From a virus, in IMG/VR virus record IMGVR_UViG_3300044971_004534: a DNA stretch of 64,000 bases; one strand, written 5' to 3'. Position 1 is the first letter of the stretch; each line of letters begins with the position of its first letter. A program made the position numbers and the translations under genes. Of this stretch, positions 17,842-49,789 are shown in pieces. The notes under the pieces are model-generated. The model was given only the letters and a program-made list of their open reading frames with translations. It was not told where the DNA came from and did not search any database.

Positions 17842-18600
17842 ATGACCTCCATATTTACCATATTAACTGCAAGCTATAACAATATTTCGTATCTTGAACA
17901 ATGGATGAACAGTATTTTATTACAAGATTACAGGCCTTTACGTGTTTCTTTCGTTGATGACTGCAGCACAGACGGGACAGATCAAAATTTTCATAAATAT
18001 GCTCAAAAATTGGCCAACAAAGACATACAAGTAGAATACGTAAAAAACAGCAAAAGACTTTTTTATGGAAATTGCTTAAAGGTTGCTTACGACATGTCTA
18101 AAGGCGATTTTTTTGGCTCTCTTGATGCTGATGATGGATTAACCCCAGATGCGGTATCTTCGGTCATGGAACAATATAATAAATATCCTCATATTGGGTA
18201 TGTGTATACTCAGTTCAAAATGTGTGATATTCATTTGAATCCAATTAAGCGAGGATTTAGTTCATGTCCTCCACATGGTAGCAGTCTATTAAACGAAGGT
18301 AAGCGCAATAAGCATTGCTATAGTCATTTTAGAACTTTTTCTAATAGAATAGAAAGATTGGAAAAAATATGGGCAAAAGACCTTAAATGTGCGGTGGATA
18401 AATATATGGGATATAGGCTAGAGGAGCTTGCTGACGGCTTATTCCTTGATAGGGAATGCTACCTGTGGAGGACGGGCAGAAAAGACTCTATAGGGCATAC
18501 AGAGCCATCTAGGGCGCAATGGACTAAAGTTATGATGGAAGCCCGTAAGAGAAGAGCAATGTGGAAACTTAGTCCTAGACCTATTTTACATATAAAATGA
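17842..18600 (+). CDS. glycosyltransferase family 2
   Basis: FTILTASYNN...FVDDCSTDGT and LDADD motifs. ATG 17842 is divergent from the SNF2 gene. Confidence 0.8.
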   Translation: MTSIFTILTASYNNISYLEQWMNSILLQDYRPLRVSFVDDCSTDGTDQNFHKYAQKLANKDIQVEYVKNSKRLFYGNCLKVAYDMSKGDFFGSLDADDGLTPDAVSSVMEQYNKYPHIGYVYTQFKMCDIHLNPIKRGFSSCPPHGSSLLNEGKRNKHCYSHFRTFSNRIERLEKIWAKDLKCAVDKYMGYRLEELADGLFLDRECYLWRTGRKDSIGHTEPSRAQWTKVMMEARKRRAMWKLSPRPILHIK

Positions 18601-20957
18601 AGATTTCTGTTATAACTACACTTTTTAATTATAAGTGTTATATTTTAGAGTGCGTTAAGAGTGTAATATCTCAGGATTTTACAGATCTTGAAATGATTAT
18701 CGTAGATGACGGTTCTTCTGATGGTGGACCAGAATATGTAGAAAGAAAATTTCAAAACGATCCAAGAGTAAAATTAGTTCGTCTATCTAAAAATTATGGA
18801 TATTCTGTTGCTAAAAATGTTGGCATAGCTATGTCTAGCGGAGATTTTATATGTATGCTTGATGCTGACGACATGTTAATGCCAAGCTCCCTGTCCAAGC
18901 GTTATAATAAAATAAAAGAAGGTTTTGACCTGGTTCATGGTTGGGCGTATAATTTTTCAAAAAATAGAAGATGGGAAAATGAATTAAGAAAAAAATGGAT
19001 TGATAATAAAAAGCCAGTTTACCAATGGAAGAATATACATCCGCAATGTGTTCTTTTAAGAAAAAACATTCACAATCTAGTTGGTCTTTATGATGAAGAC
19101 TTAAGATGTAAAAGTGATAGAGAGATGTGGGCTAGAATATACAATCATGGGTTTAAGATAGGATTTATTGACGAACCAGTTGCTCTTTACAGGCAGCATG
19201 GTGATCAAATGCATAAGAGTCCTTGGAAAATAAAGAATAACAAAAGGTTGAGTAGCGAGCTTCTCAGTCTTGTCGAAATAAGAAAGACTGATTTGTCGGA
19301 ATGCAAAATATTATCTAATTATAATTGGAAAGAAAAAATATTGAGTAAGCAAAAATTAAATAATACAGATGCGGAACCTATTGCTAGAGAAAATCCAGCT
19401 GATCTTTATCCAGAAGAGTTTTTTTCAAAGAGGACAAAAGATAAGCACAATTGGGGTGTCGCGATGGGGAAATATTTAGCAATGAAACTTGGCTCTTCTT
19501 CCATGATAGATTGGGGCTGCGGAATAGGCTCGCTTATATCTGGAGCAAAAGAGCAGGGTGTCAATAAAGTGTTGGGGATTGAGGTGGGTTATGAGGCGGC
19601 AAAGCCTTATTTGGTTGAAAATATAAAGCAAGATGTAATGTACGGAAATGCTGCTGAAAAGAGTGATTTTGGCAAATTTGACACTGCAGTATCGGTAGAG
19701 GTTGCAGAACACCTTTTACCAGAACAAGCAGACATGTTTTGTGAAAATATTGCCAATAGCTCTTCTCGCATGATAGTGATTACTGCGGCAAGACCAGGAC
19801 AAGAGGGTGTTTATCATTTTAATTGTCAGCCAAAAGAGTATTGGATAAATAAAATACAAAAATTTGGTTTCTTATACAGATCAGATCTATCTGAAAAAAT
19901 ATCAAAAGGATGGAAAGACAATGTGCCAGGAATACCTTCCTATCTTACGCAGAACGTAATGGTGTTCAAGATAGATAGTAAATGCCCCGAAGACATAAAA
20001 AAAAAGATAAGCAATAAGTTTTTAGCTCAAGATTCAATTAGAATAAGTTTTGACTTACCAGACAATGACTCAAGTGGTAAACATAAGTTTTTTCAAAGAG
20101 TAAGAGAAAACATATCTGATTTTGGTTGTAAGATTGTCAGTTCGCATGAAAAATCAGACATACATTTTTACATCAATAATCCTAATAAAAAATCAATAGT
20201 CAACATAAAAAGACTCGATGGCGTATACTTTGACGGAACTCATGGTACAAAAGTTAGAAATGCTGGCATATTGCATTCTATGAAAGTTTCTGATGGAATA
20301 ATATACCAGAGCAAGTATTGCAAAGATTACGCTTGTAAGATACTTAATTTTAATTCAAATAAGCCTAATGCAATAATATACAATGGATGTGATCCTAGAG
20401 AATTTTTAGTAGAGCCAAAGGACATAGGTTTTCCATACTTTTTAGCTTTATGTAAATGGCGTAGACATAAAAGGCTAAAAGAGTCAGTGGATGGCTTCCT
20501 GAGGGCTGAAATAAACGGAGTAAAGCTAGTTGTTTGTGGTCCACCAGACTATCATGTTTCCCATCCAAGTATAATATATGCTGGAGATTTGCATAGAGAA
20601 GAATTAGCTAGATATATTGCTGGCTGTATTGGTACTGTTCATCTTGCATGGATAGATTGGTGTCCAAATTCAGTAGTAGAGAGCGTAGTGGCTGGCAAGC
20701 AGGTTATTCACACTAATTCTGGAGGCACATCAGAGATAGTAAAACATAGAGGTTACATCGTAAATGATAAAGTTTGGCATGGAGAGCAGGCAAGTCCAAA
20801 AAATCCACCAGACATTAGTATTGATGAAGTTGCAAATGCTTACATAAACAGTTATAAAAATCCAATTTCAAATTTTGAGTATGACGATCTTTTGATATCA
20901 AATTCTTCTAAAAAATATGTAGAGTTTGGAATTTCGGTTTTGAGGAATAAAAAATGA
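18597..20957 (+). CDS. three-domain fusion: GT2 glycosyltransferase, SAM methyltransferase, GT4-like glycosyltransferase
   Basis: N-terminal VITTLFNY...IIVDDGSSDG plus MLDADD. Middle IDWGCGIGSL...VSVEVAEHL (class I MTase motifs I and post-II). C-terminal ...VVESVVAGKQVIHTNSGGTSEIV (GT4 E-x7-E region). Confidence 0.8.
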   Translation: MKISVITTLFNYKCYILECVKSVISQDFTDLEMIIVDDGSSDGGPEYVERKFQNDPRVKLVRLSKNYGYSVAKNVGIAMSSGDFICMLDADDMLMPSSLSKRYNKIKEGFDLVHGWAYNFSKNRRWENELRKKWIDNKKPVYQWKNIHPQCVLLRKNIHNLVGLYDEDLRCKSDREMWARIYNHGFKIGFIDEPVALYRQHGDQMHKSPWKIKNNKRLSSELLSLVEIRKTDLSECKILSNYNWKEKILSKQKLNNTDAEPIARENPADLYPEEFFSKRTKDKHNWGVAMGKYLAMKLGSSSMIDWGCGIGSLISGAKEQGVNKVLGIEVGYEAAKPYLVENIKQDVMYGNAAEKSDFGKFDTAVSVEVAEHLLPEQADMFCENIANSSSRMIVITAARPGQEGVYHFNCQPKEYWINKIQKFGFLYRSDLSEKISKGWKDNVPGIPSYLTQNVMVFKIDSKCPEDIKKKISNKFLAQDSIRISFDLPDNDSSGKHKFFQRVRENISDFGCKIVSSHEKSDIHFYINNPNKKSIVNIKRLDGVYFDGTHGTKVRNAGILHSMKVSDGIIYQSKYCKDYACKILNFNSNKPNAIIYNGCDPREFLVEPKDIGFPYFLALCKWRRHKRLKESVDGFLRAEINGVKLVVCGPPDYHVSHPSIIYAGDLHREELARYIAGCIGTVHLAWIDWCPNSVVESVVAGKQVIHTNSGGTSEIVKHRGYIVNDKVWHGEQASPKNPPDISIDEVANAYINSYKNPISNFEYDDLLISNSSKKYVEFGISVLRNKK

Positions 20958-21895
20958 TTAGTCATGTTATTTTGCACTATAACAGGCCGTGGCTTTTAAA
21001 AGCTCATATATGTTTATTAAAATTATTTTGTCCATCAGTATCTGAAATTGTTATAGCAGACGATGGCTCTGATAAGAGAGTTTTAGACTTAGTACAATCA
21101 TTTGGAGCTGATCATGTATATGTACAGAGTAATCATCGTTTTGAGTGGGGTAAAAGTTCTGCATCTAATACTTTGATGAGTGGTATAAAAAAATGCAAAA
21201 ACAAGTATATTAGTTTTTCTGAGGATGATTTTTTTGTGTGCCCGAATGGTATAGATGATAGCTCTTTTTATAATAATGGAGAGTATCCAAATTCAAAAAT
21301 ATCTGGTGGTGTAGATCCATTTGCAGATTGTCTTTTTTTGTTTAAAAGTCAAAAGGCCATAATGATTCAGCCTTCTAGGGACGCTAATGGATGGAAGGGT
21401 GTTCCATGTACTGGTAAAAATAGATCAAATCAACTGCAATGGTGTCAAATGGATCACGTTAAAAAGACTAGATTTTATTACAGTAATTGGCCTTGGGTCA
21501 TGCCAGCTACGATTGCAAAACACTTAGACATACCTAAGGACTCTGGCATGTGGACAGTTGAAAGTCATTTAAACAAATGGATGGCAAAAAACTTTGGTAC
21601 TGGCAATTGGAACTGGTGTGCCAGCAAGAGAATGTTTGTTCATGTTGGTCTGCCATTTTCCAAAAAAGATATGAGATATTCTGAAAAAACAGAAAAATCT
21701 ATGATAAGGAATGAGCAATCAAAAGCATTTGCAGACTCAATAGGTCAAAGAGAAGCTTTTTCCAATATAGATGATTTTAATAAAATATTTTTAAATAAGT
21801 GGTTAGAGAAAAAAGTAGATATATCCATAAGCGACCTCTCAACAATTGGAATAAAGAATACTTTTTCAAAATTTGCATCAGAGGTAATGGCTTGA
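20954..21895 (+). CDS. glycosyltransferase-like protein (GT-A fold, GT2-like)
   Basis: VILHYNRP...IVIADDGSD and SEDDFF motifs. ATGA overlap with the upstream gene. Confidence 0.55.
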   Translation: MISHVILHYNRPWLLKAHICLLKLFCPSVSEIVIADDGSDKRVLDLVQSFGADHVYVQSNHRFEWGKSSASNTLMSGIKKCKNKYISFSEDDFFVCPNGIDDSSFYNNGEYPNSKISGGVDPFADCLFLFKSQKAIMIQPSRDANGWKGVPCTGKNRSNQLQWCQMDHVKKTRFYYSNWPWVMPATIAKHLDIPKDSGMWTVESHLNKWMAKNFGTGNWNWCASKRMFVHVGLPFSKKDMRYSEKTEKSMIRNEQSKAFADSIGQREAFSNIDDFNKIFLNKWLEKKVDISISDLSTIGIKNTFSKFASEVMA

Positions 21896-22791
21896 ATATA
21901 GATTATGTAGTTCTTCATTGGAATAGGCCATATTTTGCTGAAGCTAATGTAAAATTGGCCAAAATGTATTTTCCATTTATAAGAAACTTTATTTTACTAG
22001 ATGATGGCTCAAGACAGGAGTGCGTTGATGCATTAAAGCCTAACTTTGACATTGTTTTTCAAAATGGCAAGAATCGTAATGAATGGAAAAAAGGAAGTGT
22101 TGGTAGATTGTTTGAGTCTTTTTTTAAGCAGTCTGATGCAGATTTTATTATTTTTACAGAAGACGATTTTTTCCCATGCACATCTTATTTTGATGATACT
22201 AGTACAGACAATACACTAATATCTCCCGATGTATTATTTTCAAAAGATACATGTTTCAAAGACTTGACAAATAAAATAGAAAAAATAAACACCCCATTCT
22301 TTTACCTCCAATTGGCAAAGTCAAATTATGGATGGAAGTGTTTAGAGACTTATGAGTACAGTGATGACTTTTTAAGAGTGGTTCCACAGCCAGAAAAAAG
22401 AATATATAGCAACTGGCCTTGGCTAATGGGCAAGTCTGTATTTAAAAAATGCATGCACACTCTAGGAGAAATCCCAATATGGCAAATGGAAAACATCGTT
22501 GATAAAAATATAAAGAATATCAATAGAATGAAACCATTGTGTGTAAGACAAAAAATGTTTATACACGTCGGATTCATCTGTACAACTAGAAGAGACCAAT
22601 TTAAATCAATAGGGAAATTTAATCAAAATAGATTAAATGGATCAAGTGCTTTTAGCGGCGAAAATCAAGAAAGTCTTGACGCGATAAGAGATGAGTACAT
22701 AGAAAAGTACTTGAATGGCAGTGCAATTAATATTGAGGATCTTTTTATTAAGGGCCTTCATTACGCCCTTAAAGGTTTTATTGCTGCGTAG
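21892..22791 (+). CDS. glycosyltransferase-like protein, tandem paralogue of 20954..21895
   Basis: VVLHWNRP...ILLDDGSR, TEDDFF and SNWPW blocks are shared with the preceding gene. A TTG start at 21892 (TTGA overlap, GAGGT upstream) is proposed because no in-frame ATG lies downstream of the overlap. Confidence 0.5.
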   Translation: MNIDYVVLHWNRPYFAEANVKLAKMYFPFIRNFILLDDGSRQECVDALKPNFDIVFQNGKNRNEWKKGSVGRLFESFFKQSDADFIIFTEDDFFPCTSYFDDTSTDNTLISPDVLFSKDTCFKDLTNKIEKINTPFFYLQLAKSNYGWKCLETYEYSDDFLRVVPQPEKRIYSNWPWLMGKSVFKKCMHTLGEIPIWQMENIVDKNIKNINRMKPLCVRQKMFIHVGFICTTRRDQFKSIGKFNQNRLNGSSAFSGENQESLDAIRDEYIEKYLNGSAINIEDLFIKGLHYALKGFIAA

Positions 22792-23182
22792 GAACTTCTT
22801 GTACTACGCCAGCAAGCGGTATTGGTTGGCTTATTGGCTGCCATCCAGAAAGCAAGTTGCTATCTTTTGGCTTGCCTCCAACTTCCGTATTTACTGCAAC
22901 GGTTACATGGGGCTTGCGTCCGTCTTTGATATCATATCCCTGCACTCCTACAGCTATCACCTTTTCGTCCTTGGCCCATTCTGATGCTGTTAGATTGATA
23001 ATTTTACCTACGTCTTTTTTATTTTTAGCAGGCCCCATGTTTATGGTCATGTGATGCGCATAGATCTTCCATCCTTTTGGAATGAAAGTGCTCATTCTTT
23101 CAATGAGCATTTGATGACTTGCTTGGTCTAGCAAGATTCCAGTATATGAAACTGTGGAGTTGGCTTTTTTGTACCAATTCAT
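22778..23182 (-). CDS. 2H-phosphoesterase superfamily protein (two HxT motifs)
   Basis: 135 aa from MNWYKK. AHHMTI (H44-x-T46) and PHVTVA (H92-x-T94) form the paired H-x-T/S signature of 2H cyclic/RNA phosphodiesterases. The longest ORF would run over tRNA-Gln. Confidence 0.6.
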   Translation of the reverse strand: MNWYKKANSTVSYTGILLDQASHQMLIERMSTFIPKGWKIYAHHMTINMGPAKNKKDVGKIINLTASEWAKDEKVIAVGVQGYDIKDGRKPHVTVAVNTEVGGKPKDSNLLSGWQPISQPIPLAGVVQEVPTQQ

Positions 23183-23260
23183 GTCGTATAATTTTATTTC
23201 ACTATTGCGGCTATTCTTTCCTCTCTTATTGCTGCTCTGGATACGATATAAGTAGAGTAT

Positions 23261-23331
23261 TGCCCCGTGATGTAACGGTAGCATCGGAGCCTTTGAAGCT
23301 TTTTGTCTTGGTTCGAATCCAAGCGGGGCAG
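23261..23331 (+). tRNA. tRNA-Gln (anticodon UUG)
   Basis: Manual fold: TGCCCCG/CGGGGCA acceptor (U1:A72, G73 as in bacterial tRNA-Gln), anticodon loop CTTTGAA, T-arm CTTGG-TTCGAAT-CCAAG. Confidence 0.9.
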
Positions 23332-23335
23332 TTTT

Positions 23336-23731
23336 ATGAGTAAGAATGATCTTTCAAAAATTGAATTTATATTTCCAAAACTTCTTCAAATTTGGGATAA
23401 AGCACCAGATGCAAGACCTGCGTCTATGTCTAACGTAAAAAAAGCACACGATCTTTGGGAATGGTGTGATGAAAGATCTATGGATTTTGAAGATCTTGAA
23501 ACATACTTAAGTATGTTTATTGTAGAAAAAATGTCTAAGTTTTTTACAATTTGCGTAACAGTAAAAAACGGTATACAAGAAGTTAAAAATATAGATGAAA
23601 ATATATCCGTTTCTGGATTCAATATTATATCTTCAATGTCTGAGTTGGTAAAAGCATCTGACAATATTATGCAAATTAAAAGCAGTCCTATTGAAATTAT
23701 AAAAAGAACTGTTCTTAATTCTGCTAGATGA
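23336..23731 (+). CDS. hypothetical protein
   Basis: ATG lies 4 nt (TTTT) after the tRNA-Gln 3' end. 131-aa ORF. Confidence 0.55.
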   Translation: MSKNDLSKIEFIFPKLLQIWDKAPDARPASMSNVKKAHDLWEWCDERSMDFEDLETYLSMFIVEKMSKFFTICVTVKNGIQEVKNIDENISVSGFNIISSMSELVKASDNIMQIKSSPIEIIKRTVLNSAR

Positions 23732-24001
23732 TTAGCGGAGCCTTAAAACATGCACGCACATTTCTGATCTTCTCGGGAAAGCTTCGATATGTTTTTTTAT
23801 TTCTATAAAATTAACATTCTCTATTAGTTCTTGATTGTTTAATGTTTTTTCTAGCAAAGAATTAAATTCTTTTACTACTTCGTTTTCAGCATCTTGTTTT
23901 AACGCCTCTTTCCACAAAGATATATCCCATCCAAATATTTTACTTATTCCAAGCTGGGGTAGCGAGTCAAGGTTGTTCGATAAAGAGTTGTAGGAAAGCA
24001 T
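23732..24001 (-). CDS. hypothetical protein (start uncertain)
   Basis: The ORF is open to 24193 but there overlaps the + strand ORF 24006..24617. The internal ATG at 24001 avoids the clash. Confidence 0.35.
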   Translation of the reverse strand: MLSYNSLSNNLDSLPQLGISKIFGWDISLWKEALKQDAENEVVKEFNSLLEKTLNNQELIENVNFIEIKKHIEAFPRRSEMCVHVLRLR

Positions 24002-24005
24002 ATTT

Positions 24006-24617: not shown

Positions 24618-24632
24618 TGGATATATAAAGAT

Positions 24633-25235: not shown

Positions 25236-25263
25236 GATAGATAAATACGCTTTTAAAATATGG

Positions 25264-42872: not shown

Positions 42873-42875
42873 AGA

Positions 42876-43984: not shown

Positions 43985-44760
43985 ACTCTAATCCATCTTG
44001 ATGGACATAAGTCTTTAGTGCATTCATCATGGTTGGGATGTACATCTCTGTGTGGCCATCTGTTGCCAAACCAGTTTTGTGGATAAAATACCTTTTCAGC
44101 TCTTCCTAGCCATGATGCCCACCAGCTAAAACTACTATTTGCCATTATGACATTTTTGCATTTTGACATTAGATACATAGAGGGTAGTGGGGGAAGATCG
44201 ACCATGGTGTAATCTCTTCCGCTAAAAACGTTTCTACACCATCCTAGATCATCAGAAAATACCAAGACTCTACCTATTTCTCCCATTTTTGACAAGCACA
44301 TATCGTAATGGTCTAGTCCGTATTGAGGGTATACGTCTGGATATTTTAAATAGTCTGTTCTTCTTATATGTATTGCGGTATTTAAATTACCATCCAAAAA
44401 ACATTTATATTTACCATCATAAAGCTTTTTCGTAGCCTCTACAGTATTTGTGTCAAATGAAAAGCATCTTCTGACTTCATCTTCTGCAGATAAAAAGTAT
44501 TTTTCTGATTGAAAATATCCGTCTAAATGCGTATTGTCTGCAAGACTTTCAATGCCACTATCATAATTAAATCTTCTCTCCACAAAAGACTTAGAACATC
44601 TTTTTTGTATTTTAGAAACGCCCTTGAGCTTTAACCCATGTAAGTGGCTATCATCTCCTACATAATATGGCTGTACTCCAAGTCTTTTTGCAACTGCTAT
44701 TGCAGTTGCAATTTGGAACATATTGTTACCCGTTCTCCCGTAAAGTTCTACTGTTATCAT
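43981..44760 (-). CDS. GT11 alpha-1,2-fucosyltransferase
   Basis: ELYGRTGNNMFQIATAIAVA (G..GNQMFQ motif) and AIHIRRTDYL (HxRRxD motif). Confidence 0.8.
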   Translation of the reverse strand: MITVELYGRTGNNMFQIATAIAVAKRLGVQPYYVGDDSHLHGLKLKGVSKIQKRCSKSFVERRFNYDSGIESLADNTHLDGYFQSEKYFLSAEDEVRRCFSFDTNTVEATKKLYDGKYKCFLDGNLNTAIHIRRTDYLKYPDVYPQYGLDHYDMCLSKMGEIGRVLVFSDDLGWCRNVFSGRDYTMVDLPPLPSMYLMSKCKNVIMANSSFSWWASWLGRAEKVFYPQNWFGNRWPHRDVHPNHDECTKDLCPSRWIRV

Positions 44761-45542
44761 CTGAACATTTTCTCCACTATTTGATGTATGCCATCTGGTG
44801 ATTTGAAGTTTAAATTTTGAGCAATTTGTATGTTTTTTATAACAGCATGCTTTCTGCTCTCATATTCTTGCTCAAAATTAAAGCCGTTTTTTATGTGCAT
44901 AAAGTCTTTTAGCCATATTATGCCTGCTGGTTCAAAAATATTATATACTTTTTTTGTACCCCAATATATTGGTATTGTGCCAGTTAAAAAACAGTCTAAA
45001 ATCTTTTCTGTAAAGTATGTATCTATGCAGCTATTCTCCATGGCAACTGAAAATCTATAATCTCTAAGTCCATCTATTTTTGCATTTAACGAGTTTGGTC
45101 TACCGTGACCATAAAGATCTACTGATGAACTAAGCTCATTGGCAATATCTTGTCTGTATTGGTGTCCAGAGCACATCACCTTAGAAGAAGCAATCATACT
45201 TATGTTTTTTGTTTTTTCATATATGCGTTGATCATCTTTTTCTATCCATGCAGGCACGCATGGATGTATTTGTATTAAATGATTTTTAATATTCAATTTA
45301 TCGCAATGTGATATTACTGCATCATATGGTACTTTTCTGTGCTCTACAGCATTGTATATGTCTGGCTCTATTGCTCTTGGCTCAAGTAACCAAAGAGCCT
45401 TTTTTGCTTGCTGGTTAAATTTATTAATTCTATTTACAGATACTATTAAATTGGCATCATCGGGGCTAGAATTTATCCAGTTATGATGTTCTAGGGGCTG
45501 TAGAAAATAGTCCCAATCTATGAATACTTTAACTTTGCTCAT
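44757..45542 (-). CDS. GT10-like glycosyltransferase
   Basis: YRFSVAMENSCIDTYFTEKILDCFLTGTIPIYWG. Paralogue of 30447..31388. Confidence 0.7.
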   Translation of the reverse strand: MSKVKVFIDWDYFLQPLEHHNWINSSPDDANLIVSVNRINKFNQQAKKALWLLEPRAIEPDIYNAVEHRKVPYDAVISHCDKLNIKNHLIQIHPCVPAWIEKDDQRIYEKTKNISMIASSKVMCSGHQYRQDIANELSSSVDLYGHGRPNSLNAKIDGLRDYRFSVAMENSCIDTYFTEKILDCFLTGTIPIYWGTKKVYNIFEPAGIIWLKDFMHIKNGFNFEQEYESRKHAVIKNIQIAQNLNFKSPDGIHQIVEKMFR

Positions 45543-46153
45543 TTTAAGAAATCGTACTTTCTATGTCCACCTTCAATGTCAGACCAGCCTTCTCTCTGCC
45601 ATGCTAAGTGGTGGCAAAATCCATAGCACGGAATTCTTTTTTGTATTTTATGAAGATGTACATCTGCTGGCAAGTTAAATATGTTACTATCAGAAAACTG
45701 CTCCATGAGCGTGTTGACTGCATTTTGATTTATAGCGTAACAATGAGTTGTAAAGGTCTTTCTTAATTTATGTACATGCTCATTTATTTTTTTAGGTGGC
45801 TCATTATGAGAGCCCCCGAAAAACAGCAAGTTCCAATCTTCTGGTACATTTTTGTAGTATTTTGAAAAAAGTTCTTTGAATCTTGGATGAAATTCTATGT
45901 CGTCTTCAAGAACTAAAACTTTTTGCAAACTTCTATCATGAAACATTTTTTCATATATTTTTTTGTGCGACAGACAGCATCCAGCAGCCCCTGGCTTAAG
46001 TCCTTTTGTGTCTGCGACCATAGAACCATCAACAGCTTCTAAAAACTCTACATTCATTCCGTGTTTGCGAAATATTTGCTCACACTCTGATTTTCTATCA
46101 GTCCTGCGTGCTAAATTTATGCAATATATTTTATTAAAATCTGAAATTTCCAT
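45539..46153 (-). CDS. glycosyltransferase family 25
   Basis: YCINLARRTDRK...LEAVDGS and VLEDDIEF. Long collinear identity with 25709..26326. Confidence 0.75.
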   Translation of the reverse strand: MEISDFNKIYCINLARRTDRKSECEQIFRKHGMNVEFLEAVDGSMVADTKGLKPGAAGCCLSHKKIYEKMFHDRSLQKVLVLEDDIEFHPRFKELFSKYYKNVPEDWNLLFFGGSHNEPPKKINEHVHKLRKTFTTHCYAINQNAVNTLMEQFSDSNIFNLPADVHLHKIQKRIPCYGFCHHLAWQREGWSDIEGGHRKYDFLK

Positions 46154-46158
46154 ATCGT

Positions 46159-47082
46159 TTATTGTATTTTATGAGAATTTGCTCCATGAAATTCTAAAAC
46201 TTTTTGTTCTTGGACTTTTAAAAATTCTTCAAACATCTTGACTAACTTTCTTTTGTCATTTAAGTTTAAGTGTATAAAATAGTTTCTAGTTTTTAAGCCT
46301 TTATTCCTAACCGGGAGCGGGGTAGCTTTTTCATTGCTTGGATGCCAAAAGTGAAACATTTCAATAGGTGGATTATTGCAGCCATAAAATTTAGTAAATA
46401 ACTCTATTTTATCAACAAAAAATTGATCTTCAATAGAGTAAGCCCAAAAATAGTATGGATCAAATCCTCCAATATTATTAAACAAATCTCTTTTAATTAC
46501 AAGAGATCCACCTGGAGCACCAGGTTTTCCCTGATGAAATGAATTTGGTTGAGAAATTGCTTGTTCTATAGTCATCTGACCAGAAAATATTTTGTTTGTT
46601 ATATCTTCATTTAAATAGTTAACTCTTCTGCCATTAAATGATTGTGCAACTTCTCTACCCTTCATATTGTGTCTTAATTCTGACCAAAAATTATTGGGAA
46701 TCCAAAGATCAACATCATGAAAATGTACATATTTGGAATCATGAATAAAGCTGCCAATATTCATGCTCAAGCATTTATTAAATAAATCTTTTTCTTTGGG
46801 TATAAAAACATAGTCAACATCATTTTCAGAACACATGTCAAGAGCTTCTTTACTATCTCCGTGTTCTACAACAACTAGTCTATGAGAGTTTTCGCTATTC
46901 TTTACTGAATTCTTCCAGCTTTGCATCACATTATGTAAATGCTTTTGTCTGCCACATTTTGGAATTACAGTCAAAAAATCATAATATGATCTTGGAGCGC
47001 ATTTGTACCTGCATCTTTCAATTCTTTCAAGAACGTTGCTTTTATTTCCAATAAAATTGTCTAATAAAAATTGTATGTTCAT
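46159..47082 (-). CDS. GT2/GT7-like (beta-4-galactosyltransferase-like) glycosyltransferase
   Basis: LVVVEHGDS, FHDVDLWIP and YYFWAYSIEDQFF blocks. Start set at ATG 47082 because the longer TTG form would include a terminator hairpin. Confidence 0.55.
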   Translation of the reverse strand: MNIQFLLDNFIGNKSNVLERIERCRYKCAPRSYYDFLTVIPKCGRQKHLHNVMQSWKNSVKNSENSHRLVVVEHGDSKEALDMCSENDVDYVFIPKEKDLFNKCLSMNIGSFIHDSKYVHFHDVDLWIPNNFWSELRHNMKGREVAQSFNGRRVNYLNEDITNKIFSGQMTIEQAISQPNSFHQGKPGAPGGSLVIKRDLFNNIGGFDPYYFWAYSIEDQFFVDKIELFTKFYGCNNPPIEMFHFWHPSNEKATPLPVRNKGLKTRNYFIHLNLNDKRKLVKMFEEFLKVQEQKVLEFHGANSHKIQ

Positions 47083-47101
47083 ATTTTGTATATCGTCATT
47101 G

Positions 47102-47130
47102 TAAAAATAACCGCTGCCTTGCGGCAACGG
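47102..47130 (-). terminator. intrinsic terminator (8-bp stem, GCAA tetraloop, U-tract)
   Basis: The minus strand reads CCGTTGCC-GCAA-GGCAGCGG followed by TTATTTTT, downstream of the 47209..48021 gene. Confidence 0.6.
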
Positions 47131-47208: not shown

Positions 47209-48021
47209 TCACGAGTACTTTCTGTCTGGATTCCTCTTCATGATCTCTCTGCCCATACTTACAAGCGCATTTTTACTTCTCATAGCATGCACGATAGCAG
47301 GATCTACAACTGACTCTTTGTGAGTCATATATTCAACAAATTTCCACGGCATACCTTGTGGTATTTTATCTTTTAAGGCCCCGGTCCATTCACTTGCCCA
47401 TATGTCCATGTATTTTTTGTGAAGCCTATTTTCATAATACATACTGAACATATGAGATAGTATCCCTATCGGAACCTCTTCTGGTAAATTAAGGCCCAAT
47501 CTTCCTTGATATTGTCTAAAATTATTGACGACCAATCTGGCTTGTTTGGCAAATTGTTTTTTACATATCCAGAATCCACCATTTGTATTGTACATCGTTT
47601 TTTGCGTAACTCCAAAGTTCTTCCACATATTGGTCATATTGTCATTTTTTACACCCCACCAGTCTCCTCTCATGGTTGATGAATCGTTAAGTGGACTTTC
47701 TAAGAAGCTGTGCCATAAGTCATCACCAATAATGTCTGAAAAATCCAGTCTAGGTTTTCTTACGAAATAATGGTCACTATCTATAAATACAAAAATATCA
47801 TAATCTAGCTCTGCTACCTTAACAAGATAGTCAAACTTCCAGTATTGTGTTTGATCCATGTTTATGTCTTTAATCATTGCTTTTGATTTACATCCATGAA
47901 GTGGTTCATCACAGTAGACCAGTACATCATGCTCTATACCACAGTTTCTCATGCTTTGAACGAGAGACTGAAGCATGTAGCGATATTCTCCCCACGCTAC
48001 TGACCATATTAAAGTTTTCAT
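47209..48021 (-). CDS. GT8-like nucleotide-diphospho-sugar transferase
   Basis: FVFIDSDHYF DxD block. Paralogue of 13270..14163. Confidence 0.5.
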   Translation of the reverse strand: MKTLIWSVAWGEYRYMLQSLVQSMRNCGIEHDVLVYCDEPLHGCKSKAMIKDINMDQTQYWKFDYLVKVAELDYDIFVFIDSDHYFVRKPRLDFSDIIGDDLWHSFLESPLNDSSTMRGDWWGVKNDNMTNMWKNFGVTQKTMYNTNGGFWICKKQFAKQARLVVNNFRQYQGRLGLNLPEEVPIGILSHMFSMYYENRLHKKYMDIWASEWTGALKDKIPQGMPWKFVEYMTHKESVVDPAIVHAMRSKNALVSMGREIMKRNPDRKYS

Positions 48022-49073
48022 GATTTCACCTCTATATTCTGATTCGCAAGTGCAAGCAAATTACTCCATTTGGCAAGAGCCTTTTCTTTGTTGCACCACA
48101 CGTCTTTTGCATACTCACTGGCCTTTTTCCCCATAGCAATTCTTTTGTCGTAGTCGCATATTTCTTTGGCGTAAACTCTTGCTTCCTCTAAATTATTCCA
48201 CAGGAACCCGCATTCTTTGTCAATTATCATATTAGGAAAATTCCATTTATATGGAGCAATTACTGGCGCTCCAGTAAGCTGACTTTCCATAATCGCCCTA
48301 CTTTGATTCTCAATAAATTTAAAATTGCAATTATATAAAAATACATCTAGGTCTGCAAACCATTCTTGAGTAGGCATGGCATTGGATGCATATAGTCTCC
48401 ATTTTGAATTAAAATTATGCCAGTTGTAAATTTCGGACAACTTGTCTGACCATCCAAGAATAGAAAATTCGCATTCTACACCATCACAAACTTGTTCATA
48501 AAAAATGGGGAAGTTGTCTCCAAATTTCATAGGATCATCCCTAGATACTTTGCCAAAGACTGTTTTGTTTCTGCGTTCTCTTTTTGTAAACGGCCACATA
48601 TCTGCTTCAAAATAATTTTCTATAATGAATGTTTTTTGCAACTTGTTTTGTGCTGACACATCTTTGTGCATAACAGATCTGTGAAAGGGAGAAGTGTAAG
48701 CAACAACATCTATTTGATTTTTTTTGATTGCATTTAGTTCTTCTGGAGTATGCCACATCATGTCGTTGGACCATATCATTTTAAGTCCAGATTCTTTGAT
48801 AAAGTTTATTTTCTGAAAGTCTGAGAAAATTCTGAAATTGCAATTAGCATAAGCAAATCCTTGCATCTTTTTTGGCAAATCACTCATCAGACAATACTTT
48901 ATCCCCAACTTGTCTAAAAAATCAGTATTATGCTTTTCTCTCAATCGGAATTCATCATTTGGCACACATGTTATATTGTGTGTATCTTTCAGCAATACAA
49001 GAAGTTCTTTCAGTCTTGTGTCTGCACCACCAAGATCAGATATCCACTGGAATACATATAAATTGTCTTTCAT
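48018..49073 (-). CDS. GT4/GT1-like (GT-B fold) glycosyltransferase
   Basis: The N-terminal ...DLGGADTRLKELL and C-terminal ESQLTGAPVIAP pattern resembles GT4. ATGA overlap with the downstream gene. Confidence 0.55.
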   Translation of the reverse strand: MKDNLYVFQWISDLGGADTRLKELLVLLKDTHNITCVPNDEFRLREKHNTDFLDKLGIKYCLMSDLPKKMQGFAYANCNFRIFSDFQKINFIKESGLKMIWSNDMMWHTPEELNAIKKNQIDVVAYTSPFHRSVMHKDVSAQNKLQKTFIIENYFEADMWPFTKRERRNKTVFGKVSRDDPMKFGDNFPIFYEQVCDGVECEFSILGWSDKLSEIYNWHNFNSKWRLYASNAMPTQEWFADLDVFLYNCNFKFIENQSRAIMESQLTGAPVIAPYKWNFPNMIIDKECGFLWNNLEEARVYAKEICDYDKRIAMGKKASEYAKDVWCNKEKALAKWSNLLALANQNIEVKS

Positions 49074-49126
49074 GTACTATTTATCGGTTTCTAGGTAAAT
49101 GTTTTAATTGGTCGAAGTAATGTTAT

Positions 49127-49789
49127 ATGGAAAATCATATTACATTTACAACAACGGCGATGGCGCGTCCAGAAATATTGGAGCAAACATATAGTAATTT
49201 TCAAGTTTGCTTAGATGTAGATATGAAAGAGTACAATTTAAGAATAAACATTGACCCGTTGCCAAAGGCAAGAAAAGTTGATCAAGTAGTAAATGTCGCA
49301 AAAAAGTTTTTTAAACATGTTGATTTTAATATTTCAGCAAATGCAAATTTCCCTAGTGCAGTTAAGTGGTGCTGGAGCGAATTGAGCACAAAGTATGTAT
49401 TTCATCTTGAGGATGACTGGGAGCTTACTAGGCGCATCTTGTTGTCAGATTTATACAATATGTTAGAAAACGCTCCAGAAATGAATCAAGTTCTACTTCG
49501 ACCATACCACGAAACTCACAAGGTAAGTTTAGTTCCTGGTTTATTAAGAAGTGATGTGGCTATGTTTCTATCTAGACATATGATTCTAAATAAAAATCCT
49601 GAAAAACAAATTCATTCAAATGAACACTGCGGAAAAGACGGAGACCCTGGATTTGATGCGAACAAAGTAATAGTGTATCCAGAAGACGTATGTTTAAGAG
49701 ACATTGGCAGAGTATGGATAAAGTCTCAGCCAGTTATTCGTCCTGGACCTGACTTTATATCTTGGGAAAAGAAAAAAGACATTTACTGA
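49127..49789 (+). CDS. hypothetical protein, possible GT-A-like (HLEDDWEL)
   Basis: 220-aa ORF. Only a weak EDD motif. Confidence 0.4.
   Translation: MENHITFTTTAMARPEILEQTYSNFQVCLDVDMKEYNLRINIDPLPKARKVDQVVNVAKKFFKHVDFNISANANFPSAVKWCWSELSTKYVFHLEDDWELTRRILLSDLYNMLENAPEMNQVLLRPYHETHKVSLVPGLLRSDVAMFLSRHMILNKNPEKQIHSNEHCGKDGDPGFDANKVIVYPEDVCLRDIGRVWIKSQPVIRPGPDFISWEKKKDIY

What the first reader, a model, noticed from the sequence alone, without database searches (positions are those of the whole stretch)
17842..49789. About 32 kb of back-to-back glycan-building genes with no transporter, polymerase or lipid-carrier step
Between 17842 and 49789 almost every ORF carries a sugar-chemistry signature.
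- Roughly 16-20 glycosyltransferase-like proteins from at least seven family types: GT2 at 17842, 18597 and 39460; GT4-like at the 18597 C-terminus and 48018; GT25 at 25709, 38706 and 45539; GT10 at 30447, 37802 and 44757; GT11 at 43981; exostosin-like at 27864; GT8-like at 47209.
- Six to eight methyltransferases, a sulfotransferase, SDR epimerase/dehydratases, a DegT-like PLP enzyme, a 2OG-oxygenase-like protein and a split transketolase.

Read by eye, none of these proteins has a multi-span hydrophobic profile. I see no Wzx/Wzy, no Wzm/Wzt, no WbaP/WecA-type initiating phosphoglycosyltransferase and no ligase. Cellular O-antigen and capsule loci require those membrane steps, so this looks like a self-contained cytoplasmic glycosylation factory.

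The flanking genes (sigma factor, SNF2 helicase, HNH, tRNAs, ORFans) are viral in character. The closest analogy is therefore the virus-encoded glycosylation machinery of chloroviruses and mimiviruses. To my knowledge that has not been described at this scale for a bacteriophage. Possible targets are virion proteins (capsid decoration or fibres) or host LOS/LPS core remodelled from the inside.
Basis: partly seen in the sequence, partly recalled or inferred. Interest (0 to 1): 0.85.

Follow-up and report, generated by a model that had tools for sequence, protein, structure and literature searches.

The report
Huge-phage sugar-coat gene island
An uncultured virus of bacteria with a genome of about 400 kb carries a 32-kb block of soluble sugar-building enzymes, a much larger version of the unexplained "LPS gene clusters" known from ocean cyanophages, and one of its enzymes is related to the enzyme a green-alga virus uses to decorate its own shell.

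Summary
Between 17797 and 49789, 17-18 of about 40 ORFs are glycosyltransferases from at least eight family types: GT2, GT4-like, GT10, GT11, GT23-like, GT25, GT114 and GT-A GT6/GT8-like. The block also has three SDR enzymes, a split transketolase, a short DegT-like enzyme, a sulfotransferase, a 2OG-oxygenase-like protein and 3-6 methyltransferases. No polytopic membrane protein, phosphoglycosyltransferase, flippase, polymerase or ABC exporter occurs in the window or in 15 kb beyond it.

The island is not a chimera. It is identical in at least 22 independent assemblies (contigs up to 406 kb) and fully collinear in a relative at about 76% amino-acid identity.

New points:
- GDP-mannose dehydratase lies outside the island (55408-56403) and pairs with a fucose synthase-like gene inside it.
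- ORF 27864-28616 is a clear homologue of chlorovirus A075L (GT114, capsid-glycan xylosyltransferase).

Clusters of this kind are published for cyanomyoviruses (P-SSM2, S-SSM7, S-SCSM1, S-SCSM2R), and a deposited huge phage (LR756502) holds at least 11 GTs in about 30 kb. "Self-contained" is overstated, and a missing transporter is not diagnostic.

I read it as a large new member of a known but functionally untested kind. The acceptor (virion protein or host envelope) is unresolved.

The parts
13258..14163 (+). GT-A-like paralogue of 47209-48021. It lies left of the SNF2 helicase, outside the stated island.
   Evidence: blastp gives 26% identity, E 3e-31, to 47209-48021. It is conserved in the relative R1.
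17797..18600 (+). GT2 glycosyltransferase
   Evidence: Pfam Glycos_transf_2, 1.4e-19
18597..20957 (+). 786-aa three-part enzyme: an N-terminal GT2 domain, a methyltransferase-like middle and a GT-B (GT1/GT4-like) C-terminus.
   Evidence: Pfam: GT2 3.4e-32; Methyltransf_23 1.8e-4; Glyco_trans_1_4 2.9e-4. The nearest solved structure for the N-terminus is chondroitin synthase K4CP.
20954..22791 (+). Two paralogous GT2-like ORFs, 20954-21895 and 21799-22791.
   Evidence: Pfam GT2 3.7e-6 for the first ORF. The two share 26% identity, E 2e-24.
22778..25689 (.). Interruption of the island: five ORFs with no sugar signature, plus tRNA-Gln(ttg) at 23260-23332.
   Evidence: No Pfam, PHROG or PDB assignment apart from phrog_36523 (unknown function), which matched 22778-23284. 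tRNA. These ORFs are only about 60% identical in the relative.
25709..26326 (-). GT25 glycosyltransferase
   Evidence: Pfam Glyco_transf_25, 9e-18. It is 54% identical to 45539-46153.
26336..27103 (+). Member of a conserved family of unknown function (motifs RGAGYWxWKP and HRHDQS). Possible transferase.
   Evidence: 5229 representative clusters match. No Pfam, NCBIfam or PHROG hit; the only PDB profile match is a weak, partial one to phosphodiesterase MJ0936 (E 0.006).
27104..27871 (+). GT-A fold transferase of retaining type, with an invariant SDIDM motif.
   Evidence: AlphaFold pLDDT 96.3. Foldseek top matches are LgtC (GT8), BoGT6a and glycogenin, TM about 0.5.
27864..28616 (+). GT114 glycosyltransferase, a homologue of chlorovirus PBCV-1 A075L (beta-xylosyltransferase acting on fucose of the capsid glycan).
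   Evidence: Profile E 6e-53 over the full length against PDB 8avq/8q8i/8asa. Single-sequence E 5e-28. D50, R130 and R179 align with catalytic Asp73, Arg158 and Arg208 (PMC11571054).
28589..29816 (+). Two unassigned ORFs, 28589-29245 and 29238-29816. The first is fused to a 49127-like domain in huge phage LR756508.
   Evidence: No hits. The fusion is ORF L027:22461-23819.
29819..30454 (+). Sulfotransferase
   Evidence: Pfam Sulfotransfer_1, 27.4 bits against a cut-off of 22
30405..31388 (+). GT10 fucosyltransferase-like enzyme
   Evidence: Pfam Glyco_transf_10, 6.5e-7
31336..32094 (+). 2OG-Fe(II) oxygenase-like protein of the 'sporadic carbohydrate cluster' type. Weak support.
   Evidence: NCBIfam TIGR04324, 1.6e-7 and 31 bits, below the cut-off
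32088..32771 (+). Short (227 aa) DegT/PseC-like PLP enzyme that keeps the SFHxxK motif.
   Evidence: Pfam DegT_DnrJ_EryC1, 4.8e-20. NCBIfam PseC/LegC partial matches.
32777..33526 (+). Transketolase-like N-terminal (ThDP-binding) subunit
   Evidence: Pfam Transketolase_N, 5.7e-30
33513..34358 (+). Fucosyltransferase-superfamily protein (NodZ/FUT8/O-FucT-like) with an HIRSTDY motif.
   Evidence: Of 20 family members, 11 hit NodZ and 8 hit FUT8_N_cat; best E 1.8e-6.
34348..34992 (+). TylF-type sugar O-methyltransferase
   Evidence: Pfam TylF, 9.3e-16
34940..35872 (+). Transketolase-like C-terminal (pyrimidine-binding) subunit
   Evidence: Pfam Transket_pyr, 2.8e-15
35857..36894 (+). SDR NDP-sugar dehydratase/epimerase
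   Evidence: Pfam Epimerase, 8.3e-33. No equivalog match in NCBIfam.
36845..37801 (+). Possible class I methyltransferase. Weak support.
   Evidence: Pfam Methyltransf_25, E 0.009. GCGPG motif read in the sequence.
37802..38701 (-). GT10 fucosyltransferase-like enzyme
   Evidence: Pfam, 4.6e-10. Homologues are kept next to the GT114 gene in distant relatives L021 and L022.
38706..39338 (-). Divergent GT25-like enzyme
   Evidence: Pfam E 0.004. hhalign probability 98% against the 45539 and 25709 families.
39403..40293 (+). GT2 glycosyltransferase
   Evidence: Pfam Glyco_tranf_2_2, 6.3e-9
40290..41195 (+). GDP-L-fucose synthase (Fcl/GMER)-like SDR
   Evidence: NCBIfam GDPFucSynFcl, 1.8e-57 and 195 bits, below the equivalog cut-off of 500
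41202..42143 (+). UDP-hexose 4-epimerase-like SDR
   Evidence: NCBIfam galE, 2.2e-44. Nearest solved structures are GalE, then WbgU and UXS.
42153..43984 (+). Three FkbM-type methyltransferase ORFs: 42153-42872, 42876-43484 and 43457-43984.
   Evidence: Pfam Methyltransf_21: 2.5e-4 (borderline), 4.2e-6 and 3.8e-6
43981..44760 (-). GT11 (alpha-1,2-fucosyltransferase family)
   Evidence: Pfam, 4.2e-16
44757..45542 (-). GT10 fucosyltransferase-like enzyme
   Evidence: Pfam, 8.4e-13. It is 35-41% identical to genes in the cyanomyovirus clusters.
45539..46153 (-). GT25 glycosyltransferase
   Evidence: Pfam, 1.8e-21
46159..47127 (-). GT2-like glycosyltransferase
   Evidence: Pfam Glyco_tranf_2_2, 5.7e-7
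47209..48021 (-). GT-A fold transferase, GT6-like, with a DSDHYF motif.
   Evidence: AlphaFold pLDDT 96.6. Foldseek against ABO GTA/GTB gives E 3e-8, TM about 0.45. BFVD matches are phage and giant-virus GT-A proteins.
48018..49073 (-). GT4-like GT-B transferase. Modest support.
   Evidence: Pfam Glyco_trans_1_4, E 0.005. The family profile hits MshA, BshA and TreT at E 7e-4.
49127..49789 (+). Unassigned ORF, conserved in relatives and fused to a 28589-like domain in LR756508.
55408..56403 (+). GDP-mannose 4,6-dehydratase (Gmd), 5.6 kb outside the island. It supplies the substrate for the Fcl-like enzyme.
   Evidence: NCBIfam gmd equivalog, 417.7 bits against a cut-off of 415. Pfam 1e-116.

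Best explanation
The island is a vertically inherited, membrane-independent glycan assembly line of an uncultured huge tailed phage (contigs up to 406 kb).

**Shown from sequence**
- It converts host GDP-mannose to GDP-L-fucose (Gmd at 55408 plus the Fcl-like enzyme at 40290).
- It interconverts UDP-hexoses (GalE-like enzyme at 41202).
- It encodes a further sugar-modification module: split transketolase, short DegT-like enzyme, SDR, 2OG-oxygenase-like protein and TylF methyltransferase.
- It encodes 17-18 soluble glycosyltransferases. Five belong to fucosyltransferase families, and one is a GT114 enzyme whose chlorovirus homologue adds xylose to fucose.
- It also encodes O-methyltransferases and a sulfotransferase.

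**Inferred**
- These enzymes build a fucose-rich, methylated and sulfated oligosaccharide in the infected cell's cytoplasm.
- They draw on host nucleotide-sugar pools.
- My preferred acceptor is one or more phage virion proteins (capsid, decoration or fibre). That would make this the phage counterpart of chlorovirus and mimivirus virion glycosylation and of mycobacteriophage capsid glycosylation.

**Likelihoods.** I put the general mechanism (cytoplasmic nucleotide-sugar plus GT assembly, GDP-fucose centred) at about 0.85. The virion-protein acceptor is about 0.45, which is the confidence entered here.
For: - **Enzyme assignments:**
- **No polytopic membrane protein, phosphoglycosyltransferase, flippase, polymerase or ABC exporter.** None occurs in the window, in 10 kb to the left, in 5 kb to the right, or in the 57-kb homologous region of a relative.
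- **Real and viral.** Identical proteins in the same order occur on at least 22 independent contigs from JGI, ENA and Logan. Flanks match phage families.
- **Stable part of the lineage.** Every island gene is collinear in IMG/VR contig 3300042326_002445. Mean identity is 76%, against 74% for flanking genes.
- **Conserved core.** A core of GT114 + GT10 + GT25-like genes persists in the most distant relatives, L021 and L022; L021 also carries Gmd and Fcl. Huge phage LR756508 holds GT25 x2 + GT10 + Fcl + Gmd but no GT114 homologue. Peripheral modules come and go in L019.
- **Link to a capsid-glycan enzyme.** A075L, the homologue of ORF 27864, is a soluble enzyme that builds the glycan core of a viral capsid protein (PMC11571054). 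Only 2 of 50,697 GenBank phage records carry a homologue.
- **Precedents.** In the precedents I am aware of (not a systematic survey), soluble multi-GT sets of lytic viruses whose function has been tested, other than DNA glucosylation, decorate virions. Examples are chloroviruses and mimiviruses (PMC9614988, PMC4691112) and mycobacteriophages (Freeman 2023, as cited in PMC12619734). The 385-kb jumbo phage XacN1 has virion glycoproteins (PMC5852040).
- **Possible acceptors nearby.** Two giant Ser/Gly-rich ORFs (2617 aa; the second listed at about 3931 aa and seen only in part) lie about 18 kb from the island.
Against: - No virion protein, glycosylation site or expression timing could be examined.
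- About 320 kb of the genome is unseen and could hold membrane steps.
- GT25, GT10 and GT11 are classic LOS/O-antigen families.
- The homologous cyanophage clusters are interpreted in the literature as host-surface modifiers (PMC1079782, PMC7824862, PMC9602691), although this has never been tested.
- GT specificity is for the glycan end, not the aglycone, so the A075L homology does not prove a protein acceptor.
- The host is unknown (one search gave no clue).
Confidence: 0.45

Rival explanations
1. Host-envelope remodelling. The soluble GTs extend a host lipid-linked acceptor (lipid A-core or an Und-PP-linked intermediate) at the cytoplasmic face. Host MsbA, Wzx or ABC machinery then exports the product. 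This changes the infected cell's surface, for example to block superinfection, alter grazing or sedimentation, or keep progeny from re-adsorbing to debris.
For: - GT25 x3, GT10 x3 and GT11 are families typical of LOS outer cores and Lewis-type O-antigens (established knowledge).
- LOS-type synthesis needs no dedicated PGT, Wzx or Wzy, so their absence fits.
- The homologous cyanomyovirus clusters are interpreted this way: S-SSM7, P-SSM2, S-SCSM1 and S-SCSM2R (PMC1079782, PMC7824862, PMC9602691, PMC12801897).
- GT10 is 35-41% identical to genes in those clusters.
Against: - Never demonstrated for any lytic phage cluster of this type.
- The island is as conserved as core flanking genes. It does not show the variability that Iyer et al. 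used as their argument for O-antigen diversification.
- About 35 genes is a heavy investment for exclusion.
- The GT114 homologue's only characterised relative works on a capsid glycan.
Confidence: 0.33
2. The product is not attached to a virion or envelope polymer. It would be either a soluble or secreted glycoconjugate or glycosylated small molecule, or a hypermodification of phage DNA by sugars.
For: - Iyer et al. propose secondary-metabolite-like sugar clusters in cyanophages (PMC7824862).
- The split transketolase, DegT-like, TylF and FkbM enzymes resemble deoxysugar tailoring in natural-product pathways (established knowledge).
- Phage GTs can build glycans on DNA (Pyle 2024, as cited in PMC12619734).
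- A dCMP deaminase lies at 3547-4101.
Against: - No aglycone-building genes (PKS, NRPS or similar) and no hydroxymethylase for hmC/hmU occur in the window.
- To my knowledge, five fucosyltransferase-family genes and a sulfotransferase have no precedent on DNA.
- Seventeen GTs are far more than any known DNA or small-molecule glycosylation system uses.
Confidence: 0.1
3. Artefact: host or other cellular DNA joined to phage DNA by misassembly, or a cellular O-antigen/capsule locus misread as viral.
For: - GC content is slightly lower in the island (0.341) than in the flanks (0.369 and 0.412).
- The enzyme families are of cellular type.
Against: - The same junctions and identical proteins occur in at least 22 independent assemblies.
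- The island is collinear in diverged relatives held as IMG/VR viral contigs.
- A phage tRNA gene and ORFans sit inside the island.
- The best bacterial homologue of the GT114 gene is only 39% identical.
- Megablast against phages finds nothing, so the island is not a known contaminant.
Confidence: 0.02

Closest known systems
'LPS' or 'cell-wall synthesis and modification' gene clusters of large T4-like cyanomyoviruses: P-SSM2, S-SSM7, S-SCSM1, S-SCSM2R
   Same: - Both are carried by lytic tailed phages.
- Both mix Gmd/Fcl or other SDR nucleotide-sugar enzymes with GT2, GT10, GT11, GT25 and NodZ-type GTs, methyltransferases and 2OG oxygenases.
- Neither has a transporter or polymerase.
- The genes are directly homologous: GT10 35-41% and GT25 about 28% identical (PMC1079782, PMC9602691, PMC12801897, PMC7824862).
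   Different: - Size: about 32 kb with about 35 sugar genes and 17-18 GTs in one locus. The comparison points are about 13 kb in S-SSM7, a 15-gene main cluster in P-SSM2, and 13 GTs genome-wide in S-SCSM2R.
- It adds a GT114 (A075L-type) enzyme, a sulfotransferase, a split-transketolase module and a GT2-MTase-GT-B fusion.
- It sits in an unrelated, roughly 400-kb uncultured phage lineage.
- It is conserved and collinear across relatives rather than sporadic.
Virus-encoded capsid and fibril glycosylation of chloroviruses (PBCV-1 A075L, A064R, A111/114R, GMD A118R, GMER A295L) and mimiviruses
   Same: - Both use soluble virus-encoded GTs and a virus-encoded GDP-fucose route.
- ORF 27864 is a homologue of A075L (GT114) with conserved catalytic residues.
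- Both have a multidomain GT-methyltransferase enzyme, fucose-centred chemistry and sugar O-methylation (PMC11571054, PMC9614988).
   Different: - The host is a bacterium, not a eukaryote.
- Attachment to a virion protein is not shown here.
- Apart from GT114 and Gmd/Fcl, homology to the other chlorovirus enzymes was not tested.
- GT114 identity (about 38% over the aligned part) is no higher than to scattered bacterial homologues. No specific virus-to-virus transfer is implied.
Glycan regions in deposited huge-phage genomes of the LR7565xx series (LR756502, 642 kb; LR756508, 484 kb)
   Same: - LR756502 at 434-474 kb holds GT11 x4, GT2 x3, GT6, GT17, GT114 x2, four SDRs, three DegT, methyltransferases and UGD.
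- LR756508 holds a roughly 10-kb core of GT25 x2, GT10, Fcl and Gmd.
   Different: - These records carry no annotation, and I found no paper analysing these regions.
- Their gene order and content differ.
- The present island has more GTs.
Mycobacteriophage virion glycosylation (Freeman et al. 2023) and XacN1 virion glycoproteins
   Same: Phage-encoded soluble GTs in a lytic phage modify capsid and tail proteins in the cytoplasm. This is the only experimentally shown role for non-DNA GTs of lytic phages that I know of (cited in PMC12619734; PMC5852040).
   Different: Those systems have 2-4 GTs, no nucleotide-sugar pathway and no sequence relationship tested here.
Cellular LOS core-extension gene sets and Wzx/Wzy- or ABC-dependent O-antigen and capsule loci
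   Same: They share GT families (GT2, GT4, GT10, GT11, GT25) and nucleotide-sugar enzymes. LOS sets likewise lack a dedicated flippase or polymerase.
   Different: This island has no initiating phosphoglycosyltransferase, Wzx, Wzy, Wzm/Wzt or WaaL. It is located in a phage genome.

Membership tests
Phage-borne nucleotide-sugar + multi-GT clusters ('LPS/CWSM clusters' of jumbo and cyanomyoviruses) | Lies in the genome of a tailed phage | tested here: inconclusive
   Flanks hit phage families, including a sigma factor, phrog_1314 and an HNH endonuclease. Contigs run from 160 to 406 kb, and relatives are IMG/VR viral contigs. No capsid, terminase or tail gene lies in the readable stretch, so hallmark genes were not seen.
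Phage-borne nucleotide-sugar + multi-GT clusters ('LPS/CWSM clusters' of jumbo and cyanomyoviruses) | Several GT families clustered with 1-4 SDR epimerase/dehydratases | tested here: met
   17-18 GT ORFs of at least 8 family types, 3 SDRs in the island and Gmd nearby
Phage-borne nucleotide-sugar + multi-GT clusters ('LPS/CWSM clusters' of jumbo and cyanomyoviruses) | Homology of member genes to those of the cyanophage clusters | tested here: met
   GT10 is 35-41% identical to S-SRM01, S-T4, S-SM2 and S-SSM7 genes. The S-SSM7 hit lies inside its annotated cluster. GT25 is 28% identical to its cyanophage counterparts.
Phage-borne nucleotide-sugar + multi-GT clusters ('LPS/CWSM clusters' of jumbo and cyanomyoviruses) | No export, polymerase or initiating membrane enzyme in the cluster | tested here: met
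   The rest of the genome was not readable.
CAZy GT114 (A075L family), for ORF 27864-28616 only | Full-length sequence homology to A075L | tested here: met
   Profile E 6e-53 covering residues 3-248 of 250. Single-sequence E 5e-28.
CAZy GT114 (A075L family), for ORF 27864-28616 only | Catalytic base Asp73 and phosphate-binding Arg158/Arg208 conserved | tested here: met
   D50, R130 and R179 align with them and are invariant in five relatives (residues from PMC11571054).
CAZy GT114 (A075L family), for ORF 27864-28616 only | Inverting transfer of xylose from UDP-Xyl to O4 of L-fucose | not testable with these tools
   Needs an enzyme assay. No UDP-glucose dehydrogenase or clear UXS lies in the window, so the donor may differ.
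Chlorovirus/mimivirus-type autonomous virion glycosylation | Virus-encoded soluble GTs plus a virus-encoded GDP-fucose pathway | tested here: met
Chlorovirus/mimivirus-type autonomous virion glycosylation | Glycan covalently attached to a major virion protein | not testable with these tools
   No virion gene is in reach. It needs glycoproteomics.
Wzx/Wzy- or ABC-transporter-dependent O-antigen/capsule locus | Initiating phosphoglycosyltransferase (WbaP/WecA type) | tested here: not met
   No such Pfam hit and no polytopic ORF
Wzx/Wzy- or ABC-transporter-dependent O-antigen/capsule locus | Flippase plus polymerase, or Wzm/Wzt exporter, and a ligase | tested here: not met
   None in the window or in 15 kb beyond it
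LOS-type core extension by soluble GTs on lipid A-core | GT25 and related soluble GTs, no dedicated flippase | tested here: met
   Three GT25-type ORFs. This is compatible with the model but not specific to it.
LOS-type core extension by soluble GTs on lipid A-core | Acceptor is host lipid A-core | not testable with these tools
   The host is unknown. It needs LPS analysis of infected cells.
Phage DNA glycosylation systems | Hydroxymethyl-pyrimidine synthesis gene accompanying the GTs | tested here: not met
   No thymidylate-synthase-like hydroxymethylase in the window. Only a dCMP deaminase is present. The rest of the genome is unseen.

The most novel reading that the evidence does not exclude
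A roughly 400-kb bacteriophage lineage coats its own virion proteins with a complex, fucose-cored, methylated and sulfated glycan. The glycan is made entirely by phage enzymes in the bacterial cytoplasm. It uses the same enzyme type (GT114/A075L plus Gmd/GMER) that chloroviruses use for their capsid glycan. Autonomous 'giant-virus style' virion glycosylation would then also exist among viruses of bacteria. The cyanophage 'LPS clusters', unexplained for twenty years, would be virion-glycan clusters too.
Probability: 0.35. Interest if true: 0.8.

Novelty: new member of a known kind. Interest (0 to 1): 0.45.

Why it matters
Large lytic phages have been known since 2005 to carry clusters of sugar-building genes with no export machinery. 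Their role has never been tested.

This island is the richest example I could document, with 17-18 glycosyltransferases and about 35 sugar genes. It is stably inherited in a widespread lineage of huge phages.

It also supplies a concrete, testable link to a system whose function is known. One gene is a clear homologue of the chlorovirus enzyme A075L, which builds the capsid glycan.

If the acceptor proves to be a virion protein, the cyanophage clusters would need re-reading. Autonomous virion glycosylation would extend from giant eukaryotic viruses to phages, with consequences for adsorption, grazing, particle stickiness and immune recognition.

If the acceptor is the host envelope, this would be the most elaborate case of surface reprogramming by a lytic phage.

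Tried and rejected
- **Megablast** of 1-40000 against GenBank phages found no match. tblastn with the SNF2 helicase and the 786-aa GT gave only partial hits below 33% identity. There is no cultured relative.
- **Family searches for unassigned ORFs.** PHROGs and NCBIfam on the island ORFs lacking a Pfam hit assigned no function (the only hit was phrog_36523, unknown function, for 22778-23284). phmmer of 17 unassigned ORFs against PDB sequences found nothing.
- **Local hhalign** of eight unassigned or weakly assigned families against 16 assigned island families confirmed only 38706 as GT25-like. The guesses that 28589 and 29238 are methyltransferases, and that 26336 and 49127 are GTs, remain unsupported. 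A first all-against-all attempt timed out.
- **ORF 26336.** A profile of 41 homologues against PDB gave no meaningful hit.
- **Host inference.** Bacterial GT114 homologues reach only 39% identity and are scattered over many phyla. This gave no clue to the host.
- **Promoter and terminator scans** over 17000-56500 gave counts equal to shuffled sequence. There is no operon or timing information.
- **Rfam** found only the four tRNAs.
- **The 2617-aa neighbouring ORF** has no PDB hit.
- **Moraphage lineage (PMC12619734).** Considered but not established. Those genomes are at most 307 kb, and no shared marker could be compared.
- **Rejected ORF.** The minus-strand ORF 3884-4996 is an antisense artefact of the sigma-factor gene at 4037-4999.
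- **Not possible.** The remaining roughly 320 kb of the genome could not be read, because look-ups are limited to proteins of the window and 10-kb flanks.

Full report
**Setting**

The window has a GC content of 0.32-0.46 and four tRNA genes. Genes are tightly packed, and many overlap start-to-stop by 4 bp.

The genes to the left of the island are:
- a DUF2201 metallopeptidase/VWA protein;
- a MoxR-like AAA ATPase;
- a dCMP deaminase;
- a sigma-70-family factor;
- a SET-domain protein;
- an M43 peptidase;
- TilS;
- a GMP-reductase/IMPDH-like enzyme;
- a DUF5856 protein;
- an SNF2 helicase.

The genes to the right are adenylosuccinate synthetase, a PGDYG protein, DUF5872, thioredoxin, GDP-mannose 4,6-dehydratase, CsrA, a SLOG-family protein, a SpoU methylase and an HNH endonuclease. 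Several of these match phage protein families.

Exact-protein look-ups place the same genes on many independent metagenome contigs. The longest are 406,003, 301,112, 281,172 and 240,300 bp. The source is therefore very probably an uncultured huge tailed phage. No capsid, terminase or tail gene lies in the part I could read. Nothing in GenBank phages is close at the DNA level, and protein hits are below 33% identity.

**Checking the observation**

Pfam supports the following:
- GT2 at 17797, 18597 (N-terminus), 20954, 39403 and 46159;
- GT25 at 25709 and 45539;
- GT10 at 30405, 37802 and 44757;
- GT11 at 43981;
- a sulfotransferase at 29819;
- a DegT-type enzyme at 32088;
- transketolase halves at 32777 and 34940;
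- a TylF methyltransferase at 34348;
- SDR enzymes at 35857, 40290 and 41202;
- FkbM methyltransferases at 42153-43984.

I could add six assignments.
- **38706-39338** is a divergent GT25 (profile-profile probability 98%).
- **21799-22791** is a paralogue of the GT2-like 20954 ORF.
- **33513-34358** belongs to the NodZ/FUT8/O-FucT fucosyltransferase superfamily. Of 20 homologues, 11 hit NodZ, with a best E of 1.8e-6.
- **27104-27871 and 47209-48021** gave AlphaFold models with pLDDT about 96. Their best structural matches are retaining GT-A enzymes: LgtC (GT8), bacterial and human GT6, and glycogenin. TM-scores are about 0.45-0.55. This supports the fold but not family membership.
- **48018-49073** is weakly GT4-like.

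Methyltransferases are fewer than claimed: three are robust and three weak.

A Kyte-Doolittle scan found no genuine ORF with two or more hydrophobic spans in the island. Outside it, the only real one in the window is a 67-aa ORF at 51726-51929. The same holds for 10 kb to the left, 5 kb to the right and the homologous 57 kb of a relative.

Two corrections apply. The run is broken at 22778-25689 by five ORFans and a tRNA-Gln gene. Functionally linked genes also lie outside the stated range: a GT-A paralogue at 13258-14163 and Gmd at 55408-56403.

**The most informative single gene**

ORF 27864-28616 was read by eye as exostosin-like and has no Pfam hit. It matches the solved structures of chlorovirus PBCV-1 A075L over its full length (profile E 6e-53; single sequence 5e-28).

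A075L is a soluble inverting beta-xylosyltransferase. It adds xylose to O4 of L-fucose in the N-glycan core of the major capsid protein Vp54, and it founded CAZy family GT114 (PMC11571054). Its catalytic Asp73 and phosphate-binding Arg158 and Arg208 align with D50, R130 and R179 of the phage protein. These residues are invariant in five relatives.

Only two of 50,697 GenBank phage records carry a homologue: a 642-kb uncultured huge phage and a marine single-cell virus fragment. Bacterial homologues are at most 39% identical and scattered across phyla.

**Pathway reading**

- Gmd passes NCBI's equivalog threshold (417.7 against 415 bits).
- 40290-41195 is Fcl-like (1.8e-57, below the equivalog cut-off).
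- 41202-42143 is closest to UDP-hexose 4-epimerases.

With five fucosyltransferase-family genes (GT10 x3, GT11, NodZ-like) and a GT114 enzyme whose relative acts on fucose, the chemistry is centred on GDP-L-fucose.

The stretch 31336-37801 encodes a 2OG-oxygenase-like protein, a short DegT-like enzyme, a split transketolase, a TylF methyltransferase, an SDR and a possible methyltransferase. It looks like a tailoring route to a second, modified sugar. I cannot name the product.

No sugar-1-phosphate nucleotidyltransferase or sugar kinase is present. The system must draw GDP-mannose and UDP-sugars from the host, so it is not self-contained.

**Is it real, and how does it evolve?**

The island's genes occur in the same order, with identical proteins, on at least 22 contigs from three assembly sources.

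In IMG/VR contig 3300042326_002445 (223.6 kb) every island gene is present and collinear. Mean identity is 76%, against 74% for flanking genes. The only difference is a 1.6-kb insertion that adds two more GT-like ORFs.

Another relative (L019) lacks the 28589-32771 stretch and the TylF gene, and it has the right-hand part rearranged. The most distant relatives keep only a core of GT114, GT10 and a GT25-like gene, in one case alongside Gmd and Fcl.

The pattern is a conserved core with a changeable periphery, inherited with the phage. A chimera or recent host capture is effectively excluded.

**Comparison with what is known**

The kind is not new.
- P-SSM2 was reported in 2005 with 24 'LPS' genes in two clusters (PMC1079782).
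- A 2021 survey described such clusters in jumbo cyanophages, with 1-4 SDRs and at least eight GT families. It proposed host-surface diversification (PMC7824862).
- S-SCSM1 carries Gmd, Fcl and three fucosyltransferase types (PMC9602691).
- S-SCSM2R has 22 such genes including 13 GTs, said to be perhaps the highest number in a marine phage (PMC12801897).
- The S-SSM7 cluster that I fetched is about 13 kb. It is annotated with a 2OG oxygenase, three epimerases, a GT10-like transferase 35% identical to 44757-45542, a methyltransferase, three GT11 and a GT25.

Among deposited but unannotated huge phages:
- LR756508 has a roughly 10-kb core of GT25 x2, GT10, Fcl and Gmd.
- LR756502 has, within about 30 kb, GT11 x4, GT2 x3, GT6, GT17, GT114 x2, four SDRs, three DegT, methyltransferases and a UDP-glucose dehydrogenase.

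The present island is larger than any of these. It also combines features I did not find reported together in a phage: GT114, a sulfotransferase, a split transketolase and a GT2-MTase-GT-B fusion. It remains an expanded member of the same kind.

**What it most likely does**

The general mechanism rests directly on the assignments: cytoplasmic synthesis of activated sugars followed by stepwise transfer by soluble GTs, with methylation and sulfation. I rate it at about 0.85.

The acceptor is inferred. I favour phage virion proteins at about 0.45, for four reasons.
1. In the precedents I am aware of (not a systematic survey), soluble multi-GT sets of lytic viruses with a tested function, apart from DNA glucosylation, decorate virions. 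This covers chloroviruses and mimiviruses (PMC9614988, PMC4691112), mycobacteriophages (Freeman 2023, cited in PMC12619734) and the glycoproteins in jumbo phage XacN1 (PMC5852040).
2. The conserved core includes the homologue of a capsid-glycan enzyme.
3. The island is conserved like a core module rather than varying like a moron.
4. Two giant Ser/Gly-rich ORFs lie about 18 kb away as conceivable acceptors.

The main rival, at about 0.33, is extension of host lipid-linked glycans followed by export through host machinery. It fits the GT25/GT10/GT11 families and the published reading of the cyanophage clusters. It also shows why missing transporter genes are not diagnostic.

A soluble metabolite or DNA modification is unlikely (about 0.1). 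An assembly artefact is effectively excluded.

**Limits**

- About 320 kb of the genome could not be read, so 'no membrane step anywhere' is untested.
- The host is unknown.
- Expression timing is unknown, because promoter and terminator scans were at chance level.
- Five island ORFs in the sugar-gene blocks (26336, 28589, 29238, 36845, 49127), besides the five ORFans of the 22778-25689 gap, remain unassigned or only weakly assigned.

**Verdict**

The island is a new and unusually large member of a known but functionally unexplained kind, with a useful new lead in the A075L/GT114 homologue. Interest is moderate.

Noticed in passing
L001:11661-21215 (just left of window position 1): Two adjacent giant ORFs have no Pfam domain. 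One is 2617 aa. The other is about 3931 aa and only partly seen. The 2617-aa protein is 14.7% Ser and 9.1% Gly and has no PDB sequence match. They could be virion fibre or ejected proteins, or glycosylation targets.
   Followed up: partly
window 15302-17812 (-): The SNF2 helicase is only 89% identical between the window and IMG/VR contig 3300011113_000718. The genes on both sides are 97-100% identical. This suggests a local recombination or diversification hot spot.
   Followed up: no
window 50978-51069 (-): ARAGORN calls a 92-nt tRNA-Ser with anticodon ACT. An A at the wobble position is unusual. Rfam confirms a tRNA (53.6 bits), but the anticodon call was not checked.
   Followed up: no
window 26336-27103 (+): This protein belongs to a very large family: 5229 clusters at 50% identity, 217 of them at E<=1e-30. 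The family has conserved RGAGYWxWKP and HRHDQS motifs but no match in Pfam, NCBIfam or PHROGs and only a weak, partial PDB match (E 0.006). It is a candidate unrecognised sugar-transferase family.
   Followed up: partly
L027:22461-23819 (LR756508.1, about 316.5-317.9 kb): A single 453-aa ORF in another huge phage fuses homologues of window ORFs 28589-29245 and 49127-49789. In the window these two lie 20 kb apart. The fusion hints that they work together.
   Followed up: no
window 3547-11072 and 49783-50793; about 57.1 kb: The phage carries an unusual set of host-like genes: dCMP deaminase, a SET-domain protein, TilS (tRNA-Ile lysidine synthetase), a GMP-reductase/IMPDH-like enzyme, adenylosuccinate synthetase and a 61-aa CsrA homologue.
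   Followed up: no
window 60000-64000: GC content rises to 0.46, against 0.34 in the island. This region has no counterpart in the 57-kb stretch of the relative that I could assemble, which ends at about window position 60.7 kb.
   Followed up: no
window 3884-4996 (-): A 370-aa minus-strand ORF overlaps the sigma-factor gene at 4037-4999 (+). It has an implausible composition and is not called in any public assembly. It is an antisense artefact.
   Followed up: yes
L106 (LR756502.1, 434010-474519): A deposited but unannotated 642-kb huge phage has a roughly 30-kb glycan region. It holds a strong GT6 (4e-44), GT17, four GT11, two GT114 copies, a C-methyltransferase and UDP-glucose dehydrogenase. 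An MgtC-family membrane protein sits at the region's edge.
   Followed up: partly
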